From sequence record PQ478073.1: 64,000 nucleotides of DNA. One strand, 5' to 3'. Position 1 is the stretch's first letter. Every line of letters starts with the position of its first letter. Below are positions 132-30,270 of the stretch, in pieces. This stretch comes from a phage. The position numbers were made by a program, and so were the translations under genes. Below the pieces are notes generated by a model that worked only from the letters and a program-made list of their open reading frames with translations, did not search any database and was not told the DNA's origin.

Positions 132-160
132 TGGGACATTATATGTTCCAATGATATAAT
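132..160 (+). promoter_or_regulatory. promoter-like site, class A (TGGGACA-N-TGaTATAAT)
   Basis: TGGGAC at 132-137, 17-nt spacer, TG-extended TATAAT at 155-160; same architecture recurs at 11231 and 30242. Confidence 0.55.
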
Positions 161-656
161 GTATATAGAAAATGACAACGGACATTGAAAAATGGACACT
201 GAGAACCTACTTCTCTTGAAAATGTAAAGGATAGATGAGCTTTACCGTTGTAGCGAACAGCAGAAGAAACCTGTTAGAGTACTGGCATTCAAACAAACAC
301 GATGTAAGACCACGAATCACGGCGACACGGCTGTATAAAGAACTCCGATAAGCATACAGAGAGTTCCTAGATAGATGTATAAGGTTCGCACCTTACCAGA
401 TTTGCTAAGGGAGTTCAAGGATAGCGGACGCAATTTTTACAAGAAAGTTGCGTCCAAAATTTGAGAACAAGTACTACTTTGATCGAATAGAGTTAGTACT
501 GAGTGCTGTTGATGAAAAGACCAGCGACCGTTGCATATGACTGCGATAGAGAGAAACCGAGCAACCCGCTTTCGCTCTCTAAATTTTGGTACAAGAAAGA
601 TCCGTCCAAAATTTGAGAAATTCGCAATTCGATAATATCCGATGCCATCATCGTCA

Positions 657-685
657 AGAGAGACTTAATTGTCTCTTTTTTATTA
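657..685 (+). terminator. rho-independent terminator
   Basis: agagagac / ttaatt / gtctct hairpin followed by ttttttatt. Confidence 0.6.
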
Positions 686-821
686 CCTTCATTCCCCTGC
701 GGGGGGATGTAATAGTCCTCAACAAATCCCGTCAAGTTTTTAAAGTACATTATCATTTTCAGAAGGAACTAGTTTACGAAGTAAACGCAGTGACTTCTTG
801 AGTTACGAGAGAACGAAGTGA

Positions 822-1250
822 ATGAGTAACACAACGAAAATATCCGATAAATCCGAATTAACACAAATGTTATTCAAAGAATATTTTGAGTTTCAGATAA
901 AAGACGAACATCAATTACCACAGCAATATTTGAAAAGAATTAAAGATCCGTCAGTAATTACTAAAGAAACTAATTTTTATAATAGTATTTTGGATTTCGT
1001 TAAATCAGTTCATACAACAAGACCTATTGTAGTTTTGTTTTTTGATAAATCTATTCCTTTAGTAGTTCCTGAAAATGTATTTTTTATTTCAGAAACTGAT
1101 TTAAATAATCAAAGTACTGTAAGTAGATTAAGAAATTGCTTACTTGTAGTATGTGATTCTTCTTTGTATAATAACAGAATACTATGGGATAGAAGTAAAC
1201 GCAATGCAGTTTCTGAAATGAATCCTGAAATTACCTTTATTATTAACTAA
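822..1250 (+). CDS. hypothetical protein (142 aa)
   Basis: ORF track; ATG start; first long ORF after terminator 657-685; no recognisable motif. Confidence 0.5.
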   Translation: MSNTTKISDKSELTQMLFKEYFEFQIKDEHQLPQQYLKRIKDPSVITKETNFYNSILDFVKSVHTTRPIVVLFFDKSIPLVVPENVFFISETDLNNQSTVSRLRNCLLVVCDSSLYNNRILWDRSKRNAVSEMNPEITFIIN

Positions 1251-1282: not shown

Positions 1283-1723
1283 ATGGAAGATATTAATGAT
1301 TTACGACACGTAATGGACTTTATCGGTAGTACTGAAGAAGATAATTCGTATGATGAAGTACTATTAACTTTTATTGAAAATAGTTTGTTTTTAAGTTCTG
1401 CTGCACATAACTGGCACTTACAATGTCATTTTTATACAAAGCATTTACAATTAGATGAACTATATAAAGAATTACCAGAATATGTAGACGCATTTGTTGA
1501 AGGTATCATGAATAATCGTGGTGCTTTACAAGTTGGAACTGGTAATAGTTATCGTTTTACACCAATTGAAGATTGTGTACCAATTCTTGAAGAATATGTT
1601 GAGCAATGTAGAGCAATTCATGATATGCTTGAAGAATCAGGTGATTACGGCAGTGTAAACACATTAGAAGATATTATGAGTTTTGTTGAAGGAACACTTT
1701 ACAAACTTAAAGTTTTACAATAA
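1283..1723 (+). CDS. Dps-like ferritin-fold protein (146 aa)
   Basis: SD aaggagag upstream of ATG; segment AAHNWHLQCHFYTKHLQLDELYKELPEYVDAFVEG reproduces the Dps ferroxidase-site spacing H-x11-H-x14-D-x3-E. Confidence 0.6.
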   Translation: MEDINDLRHVMDFIGSTEEDNSYDEVLLTFIENSLFLSSAAHNWHLQCHFYTKHLQLDELYKELPEYVDAFVEGIMNNRGALQVGTGNSYRFTPIEDCVPILEEYVEQCRAIHDMLEESGDYGSVNTLEDIMSFVEGTLYKLKVLQ

Positions 1724-6656: not shown

Positions 6657-7067
6657 ATGATTGAAATGGAAGGAACTCTGGTGTATGATCCAGATCGTGG
6701 CACTATGAAAAAGAAGAAGGACTTCTGGTTAGTACTACAACTTCCATTACAGTTGGTTCGATACTACCAGTACTTCATCAGAACTGACTTACATATTGAT
6801 ATTAAAGACCCACAATGGGGAGCACATGTCAGTATCGTTCGTGGTGAAGTGCCACCAAATCCAGAGTACTGGAAAAAGTACGATGGAATGAAAGTAAAGA
6901 TAAAGTTCAATCCTTGTATTGAGATAGTAAAAGATAAAAAGAATCCAGGTTCATTCTTTATCATTGAATTTGAAGATGATTTCATCACACATATTAGAAA
7001 TGAACTAGGACTACCAACCAAGTACTTTAAATATCACATCACTGTAGGTAGAACTTACTACGATTAA
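6657..7067 (+). CDS. 2H phosphoesterase superfamily protein (136 aa)
   Basis: Two H-x-[TS]-x motifs with hydrophobic fourth residue (AHVSIV and YHITVG) about 70 residues apart, the hallmark of the LigT/2H fold. Confidence 0.55.
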   Translation: MIEMEGTLVYDPDRGTMKKKKDFWLVLQLPLQLVRYYQYFIRTDLHIDIKDPQWGAHVSIVRGEVPPNPEYWKKYDGMKVKIKFNPCIEIVKDKKNPGSFFIIEFEDDFITHIRNELGLPTKYFKYHITVGRTYYD

Positions 7068-7235: not shown

Positions 7236-8162
7236 TTGAAACAAGCGAAAAAAGCACTGAAAACTAAGACTACTTATGGTGTTCTAGTTTGCACAGTACT
7301 TGTCGCTGCGATTGGATTTTATGGTTTTTCTCAAAATGATCGTGTATCATCATCGGACGAAAGTCAGGTACACAATTTAAAACCACAAGTTACGCAAATT
7401 CAAAAGCAGGAATTACCAAAGGTAGAAATATCAAAGGATGTTCCACGCGGCGAGAAGCATTATACGGTTCAACCTGGTGATAGTTATTATTCTATTGCTA
7501 AAAAGTTTAAACCTAAAAATGTACAACTTGAAGAGTATGTTATTTTGTTGAAAAATATCAATTTAAATGCTACTCTTCATACTTCTCAGGGTATCTTTAT
7601 CCCAACAAAAGAGGATTTGAAGAACGTATTGTTACCAGATGTGACTGTACTGTTTGATTATAATGATCCAGAAATTGTCAATCACATCAAAGAAGCTGAA
7701 GGTTCAATTGAATTTCAGTCCAAGAACAAACGCCGTTTACTTGGTGGGAAAGTCGGAGTTCCTTTCCACAATTCTAAATTTCATCCCTACAAGGACATGA
7801 AAGGTAATTATACAATAGGTTATGGGCATTATTTGGGTAGAAAAGAATCTGATGCGATTAAGTACAGAAACGGTATTACCAAAGCTCAAGCCAATAAACT
7901 TTTAATGCAAGATATGAAAAGAACATATAATGACTTTTTATTATTGATGCAGAAAAAAGAAGCAGTAAATCTGACCAAAGAACAACAACGTATTCTTTAT
8001 GAAATGTCCTATACAATGGGTGTTGATAAATTAGCAACGTTTAATAAACTTTGGAAAAGTGTGAAAAATGATAACCCTAAGAAATTTAAAAAAGAAATTA
8101 TGAATTCCTTATGGTATCGTCAAGTTACAAACCGAGCAGATTTGTTGTTAAGTTCACTCTAA
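7236..8162 (+). CDS. membrane-anchored LysM + T4-lysozyme-family (GH24-like) protein
   Basis: Perfect SD aaaggagg then TTG 7236 (ORF track starts 7203); N-terminal hydrophobic helix VLVCTVLVAAIGFYGF; LysM-like YTVQPGDSYYSIAKKF; lysozyme motifs YKDMKGNYTIGYGH, GITKAQANKLLMQDM, SLWYRQVTNRADLL parallel T4 lysozyme. Confidence 0.7.
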   Translation: MKQAKKALKTKTTYGVLVCTVLVAAIGFYGFSQNDRVSSSDESQVHNLKPQVTQIQKQELPKVEISKDVPRGEKHYTVQPGDSYYSIAKKFKPKNVQLEEYVILLKNINLNATLHTSQGIFIPTKEDLKNVLLPDVTVLFDYNDPEIVNHIKEAEGSIEFQSKNKRRLLGGKVGVPFHNSKFHPYKDMKGNYTIGYGHYLGRKESDAIKYRNGITKAQANKLLMQDMKRTYNDFLLLMQKKEAVNLTKEQQRILYEMSYTMGVDKLATFNKLWKSVKNDNPKKFKKEIMNSLWYRQVTNRADLLLSSL

Positions 8163-8178
8163 AAAAGGAAGGTGAAGT

Positions 8179-8511
8179 ATGCTAAATCTAAATATTCAAG
8201 GCAACGTTGATATCACTCCAGCAATCCAAGATGCTATTTACAATGAAGCAAAAAGTCTGGATAAGTACCGTACTTCTTCAGTACTAGACATTGGTGTTCA
8301 TGTTAAGAAAGAGCATAAAACTCAATATGCTGTAACTTTAACTGCTGGTAGTAAATCAGTAACTGCTGATGATGCTGATTTGTATAAAGCAATTGTTGAA
8401 TCTTTTGATAAGATGGAAACTGTATTCAGTAAAGACAAAAGCATTAAATTACACCGCAGAAACCATCCAGAACACCCAGTTCTTGATGATTTGACAGAAA
8501 ACGAAGAGTAA
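8179..8511 (+). CDS. hypothetical protein (110 aa)
   Basis: ORF track; aaggaaggtg SD. Confidence 0.5.
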   Translation: MLNLNIQGNVDITPAIQDAIYNEAKSLDKYRTSSVLDIGVHVKKEHKTQYAVTLTAGSKSVTADDADLYKAIVESFDKMETVFSKDKSIKLHRRNHPEHPVLDDLTENEE

Positions 8512-8521
8512 TATATACTAA

Positions 8522-8550
8522 AGGGACAGATTAATTCTGTCCCTTTTCTT
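8522..8550 (+). terminator. rho-independent terminator
   Basis: agggacaga / ttaat / tctgtccct hairpin followed by tttctt. Confidence 0.7.
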
Positions 8551-8564
8551 ATGGAGTTTTAATT

Positions 8565-15896: not shown

Positions 15897-18560
15897 ATGG
15901 CAGGAGATCTACTCTCACCTGGCGTTTCCATTTCAGTAACTGATGAAAGTATGAGTACCGCTGCTGCTCCTGGCACTGTACCACTATTTGTAATCGCTAC
16001 TGCTGAAGACAAACTTGTCCCAGGAAGCAGTGCAATAGCTGCGGGAACTACTAAAGCAAACGCTGGAAAACTACAGCTTCTAACATCACAAAAAAGCTCA
16101 CTTGATACCTATGGTACACCAATTTTTCAAATGAATAACGGTTCTGTTGTTCAAGGTGATGAACTAAACGAATATGGCCTACATGCAGTATATTCTTATC
16201 TAGGCATTACTAACCGTGCATATGTAATTCGTGCTGATATCGATCTAGCACAACTAGCACCAAGTGCTGAAGCACCAACTGGCCCAGTATCCAATGGTAC
16301 TTTGTGGTTTGATACCGCACAATCACAAGTAGAAGCGTATGTAGCGAAGAAAGATAGTCCAAGCAGTTTTTATGATTGGCAACTTAAGCCAGTAACTATT
16401 GTAAGTGCTGAAGAAGTTGAAGATGTAAGTCTAGTAGGTTTAAATGTTGATGATTTAGTTCTACGTTACAAACCAAGCAATGGTCAGATGCTAATGTATA
16501 AACGTTCTGCTTCTGGGCTAGTGCAAATGGAAACTTATCTATCACCAATTAACAAAGTTCCAGTTGGCTCAACTGTAGAAAAAGGTAACATTTGGATTCG
16601 TGATGGTTACACCCAAAATGGTTCAAACTATTTTGGTACTCGTTTTGTTATTAAACGTTATGCATCCCTAACTCAAGTTTGGAATATTGTACCAGCATAT
16701 ACTGGTAATTCATTCCAAGAAATTGAAGCGAAAAGTGGTGTACTAAACAATAGTTATATCGCATCTCGTTTTGATGAAGATAGTAAGAGTTTCTCTTTCT
16801 ATATTCAAAGTGCAAAACTAACAACAATTAGTGCTCCTGCTTTGCCACTTGGTGAAACTATTATTGAACAAGCAGGTGCTGATAGTTATATGACTTTTGT
16901 TTATTTGAATAAATCAGTTAAAGTACTAGCAGTTCCACAAGGCGGTGTTATTAATACCCAAACTATCATCAATAATCTAAATGCAAATGCTGAAATTATT
17001 AACGATGGTTTTAAATTTAAACGTGAAACTAATGGTGGTTTAGTTGTTTCCAATACAAAAGGTTACAGTTTCAAAATCACACAAAGTGGTGATGATATTT
17101 TTGCTGAATCTGAACTACAAAAACTAACTGTAGATAGTAACAACTACTCTCTAATTAACGTTAATAACTTCCGTGTTAGTTATTCAGTACCACGTAGTGT
17201 AGCAAAAGAAGGAACTCTCTGGTATGATTTCGGGAACTCCGATAATCTAACTGTAACTATGTATGTTGCTGATGTTGCTAATGATGAATGGGATCTAGTA
17301 CAAGAAGAAAACAAATATGTACAAGTTGATGAACCAGCGGCTGACCGTTTAATTTGGGTTTGTCCTTTGTCTCAAGGCATTGATGGTTATGATTTCTATC
17401 GTAACGTTGATGGTGAATGGGTTAAACTTGACAGTACTGATCAAAGTACACTAAATGGTATGATTTTCCAAGACTTTAATTTCCCAAGCCAAGTTCCTGC
17501 TGCGGCATTGTATCAAAATGGTATGCTTGCAGTTGACCTAGGTAACACTGAAGGTGTTGTTAAGAAAATGGTTAATGGTCAATGGGAAGTTGTTAGTGGT
17601 GTAAGTCTTGATGGTGCTGGCCTATTTGGTCGTGCTGCACAACGTCAACTAGTAGTTGAAGCACTAGCTGCTGTTATTATTGGTAATGATGACATTCGTT
17701 CTGAATTTATTGATTTTAACCTAATTTGTGTACCTGGTTACGTTGAAACACTTGATGAATGTGTAACTTTAAACACTGATCGTAAAGAAACTGCATTTAT
17801 TGTTACTGACGTTCCAGCACGTTTGAATCCAACTGGAAACGGTAGTGCTGTACAACAATGGGCTACTAATGCTAACAATGCACCAAGCAACGGTTCAGTT
17901 GGTCGTACAACTGCTTATGATTATGCTGCTCAGTATATGGGTTGGTGTCTAAGTACTAACGTTGATGGTGAAGAAGTTGCAGTTCCTGGTAGTACTATTG
18001 CAATGCGTACATATGCATACAGTGATAGTGTTAGTTATGTATGGTATCCACCTGCTGGTACAACTCGTGGTGTTGTAACAAACGCTGCAAGTACTGGTTT
18101 TATCAACAGCGAAGGTGAATATCAACCAGTAGTATATAACCAAGGTCAACGTGACGTTATGTATACTAACAACATTAACCCAATTGCAATGCGTCCTAAC
18201 CGTGGTTTGCTTGTTTATGGAGATAAAACTCTATCTGCTAATCAAACTTCTGCACTAAGTCGTGTTAACGTTGCTCGTTTAGTTGTTTATATTCGTCGTC
18301 AACTAGAAATTATTTCCGAACCATTCCTATTCCGTTTGAATACTCCAAGTACTCGTCAGGAATTTAGTGGTGTAGTTAATAGTTTCTTGGCTGAAATTGT
18401 TCAACAACAGGGTCTTTATAACTTCGCAGTAGTTTGTGATGAAAGTAACAATACCGCAGAGCGTATTGACCGTAATGAACTTTGGATGGATATTGCAATC
18501 CAACCAACTAAGAGTATTAACTTCATTTACGTACCAATCCGTATCGAAAAAACTCAATAA
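15897..18560 (+). CDS. tail sheath protein (887 aa)
   Basis: GGAGGA SD; N-terminus LLSPGVSISVTDES and C-terminal block VNVARLVVYIRRQ...FAVVCDESNNTAERIDRNELWMDIAIQPTKSINFIYVPIRI parallel T4 gp18; codon usage less AT-rich than neighbours. Confidence 0.85.
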   Translation: MAGDLLSPGVSISVTDESMSTAAAPGTVPLFVIATAEDKLVPGSSAIAAGTTKANAGKLQLLTSQKSSLDTYGTPIFQMNNGSVVQGDELNEYGLHAVYSYLGITNRAYVIRADIDLAQLAPSAEAPTGPVSNGTLWFDTAQSQVEAYVAKKDSPSSFYDWQLKPVTIVSAEEVEDVSLVGLNVDDLVLRYKPSNGQMLMYKRSASGLVQMETYLSPINKVPVGSTVEKGNIWIRDGYTQNGSNYFGTRFVIKRYASLTQVWNIVPAYTGNSFQEIEAKSGVLNNSYIASRFDEDSKSFSFYIQSAKLTTISAPALPLGETIIEQAGADSYMTFVYLNKSVKVLAVPQGGVINTQTIINNLNANAEIINDGFKFKRETNGGLVVSNTKGYSFKITQSGDDIFAESELQKLTVDSNNYSLINVNNFRVSYSVPRSVAKEGTLWYDFGNSDNLTVTMYVADVANDEWDLVQEENKYVQVDEPAADRLIWVCPLSQGIDGYDFYRNVDGEWVKLDSTDQSTLNGMIFQDFNFPSQVPAAALYQNGMLAVDLGNTEGVVKKMVNGQWEVVSGVSLDGAGLFGRAAQRQLVVEALAAVIIGNDDIRSEFIDFNLICVPGYVETLDECVTLNTDRKETAFIVTDVPARLNPTGNGSAVQQWATNANNAPSNGSVGRTTAYDYAAQYMGWCLSTNVDGEEVAVPGSTIAMRTYAYSDSVSYVWYPPAGTTRGVVTNAASTGFINSEGEYQPVVYNQGQRDVMYTNNINPIAMRPNRGLLVYGDKTLSANQTSALSRVNVARLVVYIRRQLEIISEPFLFRLNTPSTRQEFSGVVNSFLAEIVQQQGLYNFAVVCDESNNTAERIDRNELWMDIAIQPTKSINFIYVPIRIEKTQ

Positions 18561-18567
18561 AATACTA

Positions 18568-18592
18568 AGGGAACCTTTTGGTTCCCTTTTTT
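18568..18592 (+). terminator. rho-independent terminator
   Basis: agggaacc / tttt / ggttccct hairpin followed by ttttttatt. Confidence 0.75.
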
Positions 18593-18955
18593 ATTGTTTA
18601 AAATTAAATACCTTTATATTGATGTTATAAAGGGACATTATGGATATGGAAGAAATACTAAAAAGAACAATACAAGATGTCAGTAAAATAGTTTTAACTC
18701 AGTTAGAATCAATACACATACTAAATATATTTTTAAAAAATTTAGAAGATTGTCGGTATAATTGAAAAATACGAAGTATACACAAATGGAAAATGGTCTA
18801 TATCAGTAAACTATATTGACCACACTAAACGAAAAAGATACTTATATTGTGTTAATATTAATTGGTTCCCTGTTGATGACACTTTAGTTAATTAAAAATA
18901 TACTTCCAGATAGATAAATAATATAAAGATGTCATTCCATAATAGGAGAATATAA

Positions 18956-30241: not shown

Positions 30242-30270
30242 TGGGACAACTTATAAAAATATGATATAAT
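30242..30270 (+). promoter_or_regulatory. promoter-like site, class A
   Basis: TGGGAC 30242-30247, 17-nt spacer, TG-extended TATAAT 30265-30270. Confidence 0.55.

What the first reader, a model, noticed from the sequence alone, without database searches (positions are those of the whole stretch)
132..821. Promoter-to-terminator unit without a long ORF, carrying a duplicated 29-nt element
A class-A promoter-like site (132-160) is followed by about 500 nt that are less AT-rich than flanking genes and end at a clean terminator (657-685). No ORF with a convincing SD fills the interval; the six-frame ORFs at 493-756 and 586-801 run through the terminator. There are three mini-ORFs (235-351, 375-464, 512-616), and a direct repeat tacaagaaag[t/a]t[g/c]cgtccaaaatttgaga at 438-466 and 590-618 forms the C-termini of two of them (..NFYKKVASKI and ..KFWYKKDPSKI), the copies differing by an in-frame 3-nt indel. 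A GC-rich hairpin cccctgcgggggg lies at 697-712. Candidates: structured ncRNA, micropeptide genes, or an origin/packaging-related repeat.
Basis: seen in the sequence. Interest (0 to 1): 0.55.

Follow-up and report, generated by a model that had tools for sequence, protein, structure and literature searches.

The report
New large structured jumbo-phage RNA gene
The interval is a stand-alone gene for a roughly 520-nucleotide, pseudoknotted non-coding RNA that Rak2-like jumbo phages keep in about three diverged copies and that matches no catalogued RNA family, so it is a candidate new class of large phage RNA whose function is unknown.

Summary
A phage-type promoter (TGGGACA-N13-TGATATAAT, 132-160) is followed by about 520 nt without a conserved ORF. 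Then come an intrinsic terminator (659-681) and a CCCCUGCGGGGGG hairpin (694-706, not 697-712).

The window is an Asteriusvirus (PBECO4/121Q/JP4) jumbo phage. The unit is conserved at the DNA level across every Rak2-like genus found, while the flanking genes differ. Each well-sampled genome holds about three diverged paralogs; 121Q has them at 192.7, 247.3 and 326.6 kb.

On 31 distinct copies, about 15 helices and three pseudoknot-type pairings are 89% paired, against 29-47% when the partners are slid. Many changes are compensatory. Rfam 15, ARAGORN and the literature searches give no match.

The mini-ORFs break even in the closest orthologues. The "29-nt repeat" is the 3' strand of two homologous peripheral hairpin modules; other family members replace either one with a short hairpin, often GNRA-capped.

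Full-length copies also sit in a few enterobacterial integrative islands that carry defence cargo. These islands share no detected protein with phages.

Best reading: a new family of large, trans-acting structured RNA. An origin or primer RNA and a cis-acting leader are weaker rivals.

The parts
132..160 (+). Phage-type promoter: -35-like box TGGGACA (132-138), then extended -10 TG-n-TATAAT (152-160)
   Evidence: One search scored it 10/12 with an upstream TG. The motif occurs 3 times in the window, all on the + strand, against 0.54 expected. It is conserved upstream of all family copies as TGRRAC...TGnTATAAT. It is the same type as the 'divergent RpoD-like' TGAAACG promoter described for phages CBB and GAP32 (PMC5259590).
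167..681 (+). Predicted RNA body, about 515 nt. The 5' end is inferred from the spacing to the -10 element; the 3' end is inferred from the terminator U run.
   Evidence: DNA-level conservation across Rak2-like genera is confined to about 202-750. MFE is -130.8 kcal/mol, z = -3.27. Ends are inferred, not mapped.
183..194 (+). H1: variable 5' hairpin, CAUU-GAAA-AAUG
   Evidence: Read from the sequence. Many paralogs cap this hairpin with GAAA. The columns align poorly, with 53% paired.
207..234 (+). H2: bulged hairpin with a conserved GAAAAYGUA loop
   Evidence: 96% paired; 7 of 8 pairs changed on both sides.
239..254 (+). H3: short hairpin flanked by conserved GAUGA and GAA
   Evidence: 100% paired; 2 of 3 pairs compensatory.
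257..334 (+). H4 (257-261/330-334) encloses H5 (271-274/319-322) and a variable insert (275-318)
   Evidence: Both helices are 100% paired. H4 has 3 of 5 pairs compensatory.
325..378 (+). Pseudoknot PK-C: 325-327 pairs with 376-378, crossing H4
   Evidence: 100% paired. 11/31 and 3/31 sequences carry double changes: AUG/CAU, AUA/UAU, ACA/UGU.
340..366 (+). H6 hairpin: GAACUC...GAGUUC
   Evidence: 99.5% paired; 6 of 6 pairs compensatory.
380..395 (+). H7 hairpin: UAAGG-UUCGCA-CCUUA
   Evidence: Read from the sequence. The alignment here is poor, with 59% paired.
404..413 (+). Junction GCUAAGGGAG, with an invariant UAAGGGA core
   Evidence: UAAGGGA (window 406-412) is invariant in all 31 copies. 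Its pairing partner is not established.
413..468 (+). Peripheral hairpin module M1. Its 3' strand is repeat copy 1 (438-466).
   Evidence: The module is absent from the GAP32/CBB/XbC2 type, where a short hairpin such as GCCA-GAAA-UGGC takes its place.
470..500 (+). S1: long hairpin whose apical loop (482-487) pairs with the 3' strand
   Evidence: 84% paired; 7 of 7 pairs compensatory. RNAalifold recovered and extended it independently.
482..633 (+). Pseudoknot PK-A: 482-488 pairs with 627-633
   Evidence: 99.5% paired. 4 of 7 pairs are compensatory, each in 11-15 of 31 sequences.
504..526 (+). S2 hairpin
   Evidence: 91% paired; 4 of 5 pairs compensatory.
530..573 (+). Core H-type pseudoknot: PK-B (530-534/561-565) interleaved with S3 (549-553/569-573). 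It contains the near-invariant GAGCAACCCGCUUUCG.
   Evidence: Both helices are 100% paired. Independent compensatory changes are seen: C-G to U-A, C-G to A-U, G-C to A-U, A-U to G-C or C-G.
542..626 (+). Long-range helix J: 542-546 pairs with 622-626, contiguous with the PK-A 3' strand
   Evidence: 100% paired; 3 of 5 pairs compensatory. RNAalifold recovered it.
575..619 (+). Peripheral hairpin module M2. Its 3' strand is repeat copy 2 (590-618).
   Evidence: The base helix 576-579/615-618 is compensatory. The module is absent from the BF/Munch/121Q_b types, which have short hairpins such as UCUA-GAGA-UAGA.
640..653 (+). S4 hairpin: CGAUG-CCAU-CAUCG
   Evidence: Read from the sequence. Variants by eye include CGAUGA/UCAUCG and GCUGA/UCAGC. 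The formal count failed because of misalignment, with 33% paired.
659..681 (+). Intrinsic terminator: 6-bp stem, 6-nt loop, U run
   Evidence: 95% paired; 4 of 6 pairs compensatory. The hairpin is missing in the 121Q_c and BF_c paralogs.
689..710 (+). Invariant hairpin UCAUUCCCC-UGC-GGGGGG(A)UGU, with core 694-706
   Evidence: The sequence is conserved in all copies, with no covariation. Its role is unknown.
717..736 (+). Conserved single-stranded block CCUCAACAAAUCCCGUCAAG. It repeats the CGUCA motif found at 652-656.
   Evidence: Near-invariant in the 48 distinct copies aligned, including the chromosomal ones.
772..786 (+). Hairpin GUUUAC-GAA-GUAAAC in the conserved segment downstream of the terminator
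   Evidence: Phage A4 has GUUAUC/GAUAAC, with two pairs flipped. In other genera the equivalent segment ends in a hairpin that is 100% paired with 3 compensatory pairs.

Best explanation
The interval is an independent gene for a large (about 520 nt) non-coding RNA that folds compactly. It belongs to a previously uncatalogued family carried by all Rak2-like jumbo phages found here (Asteriusvirus, Mimasvirus, Eneladusvirus, Klebsiella and Salmonella Rak2/Munch-like phages), in about three diverged paralogs per well-sampled genome.

**Shown:**
- A conserved phage-type promoter precedes the unit.
- About 15 helices and three pseudoknot-type pairings are kept by compensatory change.
- Peripheral helices are often capped by GNRA loops.
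- Two interchangeable peripheral modules, M1 and M2, account for the 29-nt repeat.
- An intrinsic terminator follows the body.

**Inferred:**
- Host sigma-70 RNA polymerase transcribes the RNA from the TGGGACA / extended -10 promoter, possibly helped by a phage factor.
- Most transcripts end at the terminator.
- The RNA acts in trans through its three-dimensional fold, as a scaffold or partner for proteins or for other RNA copies. It does not act by coding, by long antisense pairing, or as a leader.
- The few bacterial islands that carry a copy took it from such phages, and use it either to exploit or to interfere with them.
For: **Identity and distribution**
- The window is 100% identical to phages JP4, ECO103 4-12-1 and EC22.5-2.
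- In distant genera only about 202-750 matches at 66-72%, while the neighbouring genes differ.

**Structure**
- 3' domain: 67 pairs, 88.7% paired against 41-47% when slid. 32 pairs changed on both sides. 0 of 500 shuffles reach the observed percentage paired or covariation score.
- 5' domain: 38 pairs, 89.4% paired against 29-42% when slid, 26 pairs changed on both sides. 0 of 500 shuffles reach those two measures; 17 of 500 reach the count of further pair types.
- RNAalifold independently recovers S1, J, S3, the M2 base and the terminator.
- Folding energy z = -3.27.
- G+C is 0.42 in a genome region of 0.26-0.30.

**Multi-copy family**
- nhmmer finds 2-3 copies in each genome represented.
- 121Q has copies at 192,750, about 247,300 and 326,602, all on the + strand.
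- 33 of 33 metagenome pattern hits are family members.

**Stand-alone unit**
- Copy b lies between endonuclease VII (-) and the baseplate hub (-), with no co-oriented gene downstream. This synteny is shared by 121Q, BF, Munch and Hallingskeid.

**Not coding, not a known family**
- The mini-ORFs are not conserved.
- Rfam gathering threshold: 0 hits. Rfam E<=10 scans of three copies give only inconsistent chance hits.
- No tRNA or tmRNA.
- No paper in the library contains the conserved strings.

**Chromosomal copies**
- The E. coli and Citrobacter copies keep the promoter, all helices, the terminator and the downstream block.
Against: - There are no expression data. Transcript ends, abundance and timing are all inferred.
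- Sequence conservation continues for at least 60-130 nt past the terminator: the CCCC hairpin, the CGUCA block and further hairpins with compensatory change.
- Two paralog types lack the terminator hairpin. The functional unit may therefore be longer, or may act partly in cis.
- No partner protein was found. The island proteins have no phage homologues.
- The only element that the islands share with the phages is this DNA segment. That pattern is also what a cis-acting site borrowed by a satellite would look like.
- The shuffle control ignores phylogeny. The slid-partner control is the sounder one.
Confidence: 0.62

Rival explanations
1. Replication-origin unit. The promoter makes a structured pre-primer RNA that forms a persistent RNA-DNA hybrid near the terminator and CCCC-hairpin region and primes leading-strand synthesis. 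This would resemble T4 oriF/oriG R-loops or ColE1 RNA II. The three copies would be three origins, and islands would carry one so that the phage replicates them.
For: - The promoter is of the class that the CBB paper found mostly upstream of DNA-synthesis genes, so it is middle-like.
- There are three copies, 55-80 kb apart, on a 350-kb T4-like genome.
- Copy b sits where transcription switches strand, as T4 oriE/F/G do.
- An invariant, non-covarying DNA block follows the RNA body.
- The islands share only this element with the phages.
- ColE1 RNA II is a structured primer of about 550 nt (own knowledge).
Against: - T4 R-loop origins need only about 100 bp: a middle promoter plus an A+T-rich unwinding element. 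They share no motif and do not depend on specific sequence (PMC3016281).
- This unit is G+C-enriched.
- It carries three pseudoknots and about 15 covarying helices.
- It ends in a canonical intrinsic terminator.
- Nothing here tests replication.
Confidence: 0.14
2. Cis-acting leader or attenuator. The structured RNA senses a ligand or protein and controls read-through of the terminator into the downstream genes (ORF 822-1250 and the Dps-like gene in this window).
For: - Copies a and c precede co-oriented genes.
- The c-type copies lack the terminator hairpin.
- The conserved structured segment lies between the terminator and the next ORF.
Against: - The syntenic copy b faces genes on the opposite strand in four genera.
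- Downstream genes differ between copies and between genera.
- The island copies sit in yet other contexts.
- At 520 nt with three pseudoknots it is far larger than known leaders.
- No riboswitch model matches.
Confidence: 0.08
3. The unit is a selfish or recombination-promoting repeat acting at the DNA level: a mobile cassette, a module-shuffling element like the T4 PeSL repeats, or a packaging-related site. The RNA fold would be incidental.
For: - It is multi-copy, sits in different genomic contexts, and also occurs in integrative islands.
- An HNH endonuclease gene lies about 1 kb upstream in JP4.
Against: - The paralogs fall into types that recur across genera and, for copy b, share synteny. 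The copies are therefore old rather than recently mobile.
- No terminal repeats or target duplications were seen.
- Compensatory changes show selection on base pairing in a single strand.
Confidence: 0.05
4. The three mini-ORFs (235-351, 375-464, 512-616) encode micropeptides, and the 29-nt repeat encodes a shared C-terminal peptide motif.
For: The ORFs exist, and some automatic annotations call them.
Against: - In 121Q a 1-nt indel shifts ORF2.
- In Turkey5 ORF1 and ORF3 are truncated and ORF2 loses its ATG.
- In the paralogs and in other genera the frames are broken by indels of +9 to -53 nt, many not multiples of three.
- The repeat is lost from either position in whole lineages.
Confidence: 0.02

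Closest known systems
GOLLD and ROOL (large 'ornate' bacterial and phage-associated RNAs of unknown function; PMC12286853)
   Same: It is several hundred nucleotides long and non-coding. It has many covarying helices with pseudoknots and GNRA-capped peripheral stems. It is encoded by phages and by integrated elements, and its biochemical function is unknown.
   Different: No sequence or structure match to the Rfam 15 library, in which I expect both families to be present, even at E<=10. The hosts are Enterobacterales jumbo phages rather than Lactobacillales or rumen taxa. There are about three paralogs per genome. It has its own conserved promoter and terminator. Whether it multimerises is untested.
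T4 oriF/oriG R-loop origins and the ColE1 RNA II primer
   Same: A promoter of a phage-specific (middle-like) class drives a non-coding transcript. There are several copies per genome. RNA II is also structured and about 550 nt (own knowledge).
   Different: T4 origins are about 100 bp with an A+T-rich unwinding element and share no motif. This unit is G+C-enriched, highly conserved, pseudoknotted and terminated. No antisense RNA I-like partner was looked for or seen.
PA5oct ncRNA001 and ncRNA002 (lncRNAs found by RNA-seq in a related jumbo phage; PMC7318152)
   Same: These are ORF-free transcripts of 236-450 nt in a phage related to this clade. Each accounts for up to about 5% of phage reads. 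This shows that such phages do make abundant long ncRNAs.
   Different: No detectable sequence similarity: nhmmer --max at E<=10 gave nothing. Their structures have not been compared. They lie in the terminal repeat.
phi29 pRNA
   Same: It is a phage-encoded, promoter-driven structured RNA that acts in trans as part of a machine and assembles through loop-loop pairing (own knowledge).
   Different: pRNA is about 174 nt and single-copy, and it belongs to a different phage group. T4-like packaging motors are not known to need RNA. This is only an analogy for how such an RNA could work, and it was not tested.
ToxI / pseudo-ToxI (an RNA shared between phages and host defence loci)
   Same: The same RNA gene is found both in phages and in host defence-associated islands (own knowledge of the paradigm).
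   Different: ToxI is a tandem 36-nt repeat antitoxin with a partner toxin. Here there is no tandem array and no adjacent toxin. The apparent direction of transfer is phage to island, because the copy is A+T-rich with a phage-type promoter.

Membership tests
Any Rfam 15 family (including GOLLD, ROOL, HEARO/omega-RNA, RNase P, group I/II introns, riboswitches) | Match to the family covariance model at or above its gathering score | tested here: not met
   0 matches in the whole window. E<=10 scans of the window, E. coli and GAP32 copies give only different low-score snoRNA, sRNA or miRNA hits that do not recur between copies.
tRNA / tmRNA | tRNA-like domain detectable by ARAGORN | tested here: not met
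   0 genes in 64 kb.
Structured non-coding RNA gene (generic) | Helices maintained by compensatory substitutions across homologues | tested here: met
   88.7% and 89.4% of cells are paired, against 29-47% when slid. 32 and 26 pairs changed on both sides. RNAalifold agrees.
Structured non-coding RNA gene (generic) | Own promoter and terminator; a discrete transcript | tested here: inconclusive
   The promoter motif and the terminator are conserved and the terminator stem covaries. No transcript data are available, and two paralog types lack the terminator hairpin.
Large ornate phage-associated RNAs (the kind, not homology) | More than 400 nt, multi-domain, with pseudoknots, non-coding, and encoded by phages or prophage-like elements | tested here: met
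   About 515 nt, three pseudoknot-type pairings, about 15 helices. Found in jumbo phages and integrative islands. ORFs not conserved.
Large ornate phage-associated RNAs (the kind, not homology) | Homo-oligomeric assembly, as shown for GOLLD, ROOL and OLE | not testable with these tools
   Needs native gels or cryo-EM.
T4-type R-loop replication origin | Phage middle-type promoter | tested here: inconclusive
   The promoter is of the TGAAACG/TGGGACA class that lies mostly before DNA-synthesis genes in CBB. Its timing and its activator are unknown.
T4-type R-loop replication origin | A+T-rich DNA unwinding element just downstream, with no sequence-specific requirement | tested here: not met
   The downstream region is the most G+C-rich part of the neighbourhood, and it is highly sequence- and structure-conserved. 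The T4 features are taken from PMC3016281.
T4-type R-loop replication origin | Replication initiates at the site | not testable with these tools
   Needs marker-frequency analysis or nascent-strand mapping.
Protein-coding / micropeptide genes | Reading frame and start codon conserved in orthologues | tested here: not met
   Frameshifts, lost ATG codons and premature stops in 121Q, Turkey5, A4 and all more distant copies.
Cis-regulatory leader / riboswitch | Constant position upstream of a co-oriented, functionally related gene | tested here: not met
   Copy b faces genes on the opposite strand in four genera. Downstream genes differ among copies.

The most novel reading that the evidence does not exclude
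This is a new class of large ornate RNA with an activity of its own: catalysis, or self-assembly into a higher-order particle or machine component. Under this reading it matters enough to Rak2-like jumbo phages that each of the few genomes that could be checked keeps about three long-diverged paralogs. A few enterobacterial defence islands would have captured the gene, complete with its phage promoter, as a decoy, sensor or hijacking device against these phages.
Probability: 0.3. Interest if true: 0.9.

Novelty: new variant of a known kind. Interest (0 to 1): 0.76.

Why it matters
**Rarity.** Large, intricately folded bacterial and phage RNAs are rare, and each class found so far (RNase P, group I/II introns, tmRNA, OLE, GOLLD, ROOL) has opened new biochemistry. 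This one lies in phages that can be cultured on E. coli K-12 and O157 (PBECO4, 121Q, JP4, Sharanji). Genetics, RNA-seq, probing and cryo-EM are therefore directly feasible, unlike for most metagenome-derived RNA classes.

**What the data suggest.**
- Keeping about three paralogs across several genera argues for a core role in jumbo-phage infection.
- Complete copies inside small integrative islands that also carry retron-like or PDC-M45 defence cargo suggest an RNA-level interface between jumbo phages and host mobile elements.

**Practical point.** Current annotations either leave these 0.7-kb gaps empty or fill them with spurious 29-38-aa "hypothetical proteins".

Tried and rejected
- **Known RNA families:** Rfam gathering and permissive scans of three copies, plus ARAGORN, found nothing consistent.
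- **RNase P resemblance:** from memory, E. coli M1 RNA has CGACC..GUGCAACAGAGAGCAAACCG, against CGACCGUUGCA..AUAGAGAGAAACCG here. I rejected this lead. It is at chance level for sequences of this length, it lies in a different position in the molecule, and no RNase P model hit at E<=10.
- **Hammerhead-like GAUGAG...CGAA at 234-257:** rejected, because some copies have GUUGAG at the position that would be essential.
- **Homology to PA5oct ncRNA001/002:** none by nhmmer --max.
- **Extra copies in the window:** none by blastn, by a motif search with 3 mismatches, or by nhmmer.
- **Long antisense targets in the window:** only chance-level matches of at most 19 nt.
- **Bacterial genome scan with a 20-base gapped pattern:** 71 hits, of which 70 were chance matches in G+C-rich genomes and 1 was real (Citrobacter).
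- **Plasmids:** no copy.
- **A partner protein shared by islands and phages:** none. The 118-aa and 165-aa island proteins have no phage match.
- **The RNA as a core part of the island family:** rejected. The Klebsiella and Yersinia islands with the same 118-aa gene lack it.
- **Helices H1, H7, S4 and the middle downstream hairpin:** these could not be confirmed formally because MAFFT misaligns them.
- **Covariance model:** I did not build one.
- **Literature:** searches for the phage names, for jumbo-phage ncRNAs and for the conserved strings found no description of this RNA.
Full report
**1. What is in the sequence**

The window is a Rak2-like jumbo phage of the genus Asteriusvirus. Bases 1-1300 are 100% identical to phages JP4 (from 255,566), ECO103 4-12-1 and EC22.5-2, and 97-99.9% identical to PBECO4, 121Q, phAPEC6 and others.

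- TGGGACA at 132-138 and TG-n-TATAAT at 152-160. The scan scored this 10 of 12, with an upstream TG.
- About 500 nt with G+C of 0.41-0.43, inside flanks of 0.26-0.30.
- A terminator hairpin at 659-676 followed by a U run.
- The three mini-ORFs.
- The 29-nt direct repeat at 438-466 and 590-618, with two matches against none expected.

One coordinate needs correcting. CCCCTGCGGGGGG is at 694-706 and is unique in the window.

As a generic sigma-70 match the promoter is not above chance. The exact motif TGGGACA-N13-TGATATAAT, however, occurs three times in the window, all on the + strand, against 0.54 expected. It corresponds to the "divergent RpoD-like" promoter (-35 TGAAACG, classic -10) reported for phages CBB and GAP32, mostly upstream of DNA-synthesis genes (PMC5259590).

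**2. Conservation pattern**

A sensitive BLAST of 190-760 finds 72 phage records, all from the jumbo-phage hosts listed below. Hosts are Escherichia, Klebsiella, Salmonella, Erwinia, Yersinia, Cronobacter, Pectobacterium, Serratia and Xanthomonas. Most records annotate nothing there.

In the distant genera only about 202-750 of the query matches, at 66-72% identity. The flanking protein genes do not match at the DNA level. The neighbours also differ. The unit lies after gp343 in GAP32, CBB and XbC2, and between endonuclease VII and the baseplate hub in BF, Munch and Hallingskeid. A non-coding stretch that outlasts its coding neighbours points to an RNA or a cis element.

**3. A multi-copy family**

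Two conserved strings were scanned against viral contigs, and the hits were filtered with a profile built from the orthologues. This gave 38 hits, with two or three per genome.

In 121Q the copies lie at 192,750 (c), about 247,300 (a, the window's copy) and 326,602 (b), all on the + strand. BF and GAP32 also have three.

The paralogs fall into types that recur across genera. Copy b has the same synteny in 121Q, BF, Munch and Hallingskeid: recombination endonuclease, endonuclease VII, the RNA, then the baseplate hub on the other strand. The duplications are therefore old.

A stringent gapped pattern scanned against metagenomes returned 33 loci, and all 33 are family members. Only one copy lies in this window.

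**4. It is a structured RNA**

I derived helices from a column-pair scan and by eye. I then tested them on tool-made alignments of 31 distinct copies, covering the paralogs, the orthologues and two chromosomal copies.

| Domain | Window range | Pairs | Cells paired | Paired when slid 1-3 columns | Pairs changed on both sides |
|---|---|---|---|---|---|
| 3' | 466-745 | 67 | 88.7% | 41-47% | 32 |
| 5' | 163-470 | 38 | 89.4% | 29-42% | 26 |

For both domains, 0 of 500 shuffles reach the observed percentage paired or covariation score. In the 5' domain 17 of 500 shuffles reach the count of further pair types.

The long-range pairings are the most telling:
- **PK-A (482-488 with 627-633):** 99.5% paired, with 11-15 of 31 sequences carrying double changes at four positions.
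- **J (542-546 with 622-626):** 100% paired, three compensatory pairs.
- **PK-B (530-534 with 561-565), interleaved with S3 (549-553 with 569-573):** both 100% paired, with independent compensatory changes inside otherwise near-invariant sequence.
- **PK-C (325-327 with 376-378):** 100% paired and crosses H4.

RNAalifold, which cannot predict pseudoknots, independently recovers S1, J, S3, the M2 base, the terminator and the CCCC hairpin. The single-sequence fold is more stable than shuffles, with z = -3.27.

Many peripheral stems end in GNRA loops such as GAAA and GAGA. This is typical of large RNAs that pack by tertiary contacts (established knowledge).

Four helices could not be confirmed formally because their columns are misaligned: H1, H7, S4 and one downstream hairpin.

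**5. The 29-nt repeat explained**

The two copies are the 3' strands of two homologous hairpin modules, M1 (413-468) and M2 (575-619). They are inserted at different places in the fold.
- The GAP32/CBB/XbC2 type lacks M1 and has a short GAAA-capped hairpin there.
- The BF/Munch/121Q_b types lack M2 and have short hairpins, some GNRA-capped.
- Asteriusvirus copy a, the E. coli copy and the Citrobacter copy have both.

The repeat is therefore a peripheral RNA module present once or twice. It is neither a peptide motif nor a DNA iteron.

**6. Not coding**

Translating from the aligned start of each mini-ORF shows the following:
- 121Q has a 1-nt indel that changes the C-terminus of ORF2.
- Turkey5 truncates ORF1 and ORF3 and has ACA in place of the ORF2 ATG.
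- A4 differs again.
- The paralogs and the other genera carry length differences of +9 to -53 nt, many not multiples of three.

Some automatic annotations call these ORFs "hypothetical proteins".

**7. Not a known family**

- Rfam 15 at gathering thresholds gives no hit in 64 kb.
- Permissive scans (E<=10) of the window, E. coli and GAP32 copies give only low-scoring hits that differ between copies.
- ARAGORN finds nothing.
- Papers on these phages and searches for jumbo-phage ncRNAs do not mention the unit. The conserved strings appear in no relevant paper.
- PA5oct, a related jumbo phage, has RNA-seq-defined lncRNAs that each make up to about 5% of phage reads (PMC7318152). They show no sequence similarity to this unit.

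**8. Beyond the terminator**

Conservation does not stop at the U run. The hairpin UCAUUCCCC-UGC-GGGGGG(A)UGU and the block CCUCAACAAAUCYCGUCA are near-invariant in all 48 distinct copies aligned, and they do not covary.

Further downstream there are hairpins with compensatory change:
- In this window, 772-786 is GUUUAC-GAA-GUAAAC, against GUUAUC/GAUAAC in A4.
- In other genera a terminal hairpin is 100% paired with three compensatory pairs.

The 121Q_c and BF_c paralogs lack the terminator hairpin altogether. So either some transcripts read through, or a second short RNA or leader starts after the terminator. A TATAAAT-like late-promoter motif is present there in many copies but not in all. 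This remains unexplained.

**9. Copies in bacterial chromosomes**

Two of 5,426 complete E. coli genomes carry a full-length copy at 75.8% identity.

In strain LR-29-1 the copy lies in an island of about 10 kb next to ffs. The island holds an integrase split by IS3, a candidate defence system (DuOB, DUF488, mSLOG-DUF4326; PADLOC PDC-M45) and a resolvase.

Citrobacter amalonaticus P55 and three metagenome contigs carry another type directly after a large serine recombinase. It is followed by a CI/Cro-like switch and, in one case, a reverse transcriptase.

These copies keep the phage-type promoter, all helices, the terminator and the downstream block. They are A+T-rich relative to the host flank.

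The islands share a 118-aa protein at 73% identity. That protein defines an island family widespread in Enterobacterales, with 212 clusters. Islands of this family in Klebsiella and Yersinia nevertheless lack the RNA. The island proteins tested have no match in phages.

The RNA is therefore accessory cargo of a few islands, most simply acquired from a jumbo phage.

**10. How it most likely works**

*Shown:* an independent, conserved, promoter-led unit that encodes an RNA under strong selection for a complex fold.

*Inferred:* the RNA is a trans-acting structural RNA. It would be transcribed by host RNA polymerase from the extended -10 promoter, possibly boosted by a phage factor acting at the TGGGACA box, and mostly terminated at 681. 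Its function would reside in its tertiary structure, as a partner or scaffold for proteins or for other copies.

Four points support stand-alone, trans action:
- Copy b is convergent with its neighbours.
- Downstream genes differ among the copies.
- No long antisense target was found in the window.
- The chromosomal copies retain the fold.

**11. Rivals**

- **Origin or primer RNA.** It fits the promoter class, the copy number and spacing, the invariant DNA-like block and the sharing with islands. It conflicts with the G+C enrichment, the terminator and the elaborate fold. T4 origins need only a middle promoter and an A+T-rich unwinding element, and they share no motif (PMC3016281).
- **Cis-acting leader.** Contradicted by copy b.
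- **DNA-level selfish repeat.** Contradicted by the old, syntenic paralogs and by the covariation.
- **Micropeptides.** Refuted.

**12. Comparison and novelty**

In kind, this RNA resembles the large ornate phage-associated RNAs GOLLD and ROOL. It is long, multi-domain, pseudoknotted and of unknown function. It fails the only available membership test for them, and for every other Rfam family.

I therefore file it as a new family within a known kind. The islands and the multi-paralog arrangement are the unusual features.

Its function is the main gap, and experiments in culturable E. coli phages could close it.

Noticed in passing
window 11231-11259 and 30242-30270 (+): Two more exact instances of the promoter motif TGGGACA-N13-TGATATAAT. 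All three in the window are on the + strand, against 0.54 expected. They probably mark other transcription units of the same temporal class.
   Followed up: partly
L173 (E. coli LR-29-1, NZ_AP027515) 7,800-18,600: An island of about 10 kb next to ffs. It carries a tyrosine integrase split by IS3, the RNA copy (about 11,870-12,500), the 118-aa family protein, a DuOB/DUF488/mSLOG-DUF4326 trio matching the PADLOC candidate system PDC-M45, a resolvase and DUF2188.
   Followed up: partly
L209-L214 (Klebsiella and Yersinia islands): The same island family (integrase ... 118-aa protein ... cargo such as SLATT_5 ... resolvase) lacks the RNA. It still has non-coding gaps of about 650 nt in comparable positions: L209 8,510-9,213 and L212 6,340-7,006. 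No Rfam hit at E<=1. These gaps may hold other unrecognised RNAs or origins.
   Followed up: partly
L212 about 6,750-6,860 (Yersinia enterocolitica island): Iteron-like direct repeats (AAAGTACAAAGATACTC twice) and many AGTAC(T) motifs lie in the non-coding gap after the integrase. The AGUACU palindrome also recurs in stems of the phage RNA.
   Followed up: no
L202 1,343-2,272 (+): A 309-aa reverse transcriptase (RVT_1, E = 2.5e-23) and an adjacent 299-aa ORF lie in a Citrobacter-type island that also carries the RNA. This looks like retron-type defence cargo. The retron assignment is my inference.
   Followed up: no
L055 / L174 (121Q copy c, 192,750-193,314) and L076 (BF copy c): These paralogs lack the terminator hairpin. 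The S4-GUCAA segment runs through a U run, or directly, into the CCCC hairpin, and a co-oriented gene starts about 40 nt after the unit.
   Followed up: partly
window 737-745 and the equivalent position in other copies: A TATAAAT-like motif resembling the T4/CBB late promoter (ATAAATA) follows the CGUCA block in many copies, for example GAP32 and CBB. It is degenerate in this window (TTTTTAAAG) and in the chromosomal copies.
   Followed up: no
window 404-413: The junction GCUAAGGGAG has an invariant UAAGGGA core (406-412) and resembles a Shine-Dalgarno sequence. No start codon follows it, and its pairing partner was not established.
   Followed up: no
L101 14,452-14,902 (PA5oct ncRNA002): This RNA contains a hairpin, GCUACAAAGG...ACCCCG-CUUUGUAGC, whose loop end loosely recalls the AACCCGCUUUC core of this family. 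nhmmer sees no similarity. It was not tested with a structural model.
   Followed up: no
window 822-1250 and 1283-1723 (+): The downstream genes are a 142-aa hypothetical protein and a 146-aa protein annotated in relatives as Dps-like, starvation-inducible DNA-binding or 'structural protein'.
   Followed up: no
L001 4,711-5,322 (JP4, about 1 kb upstream of the window start): An HNH endonuclease gene lies shortly upstream of copy a in Asteriusvirus genomes. It is not associated with the other copies.
   Followed up: no
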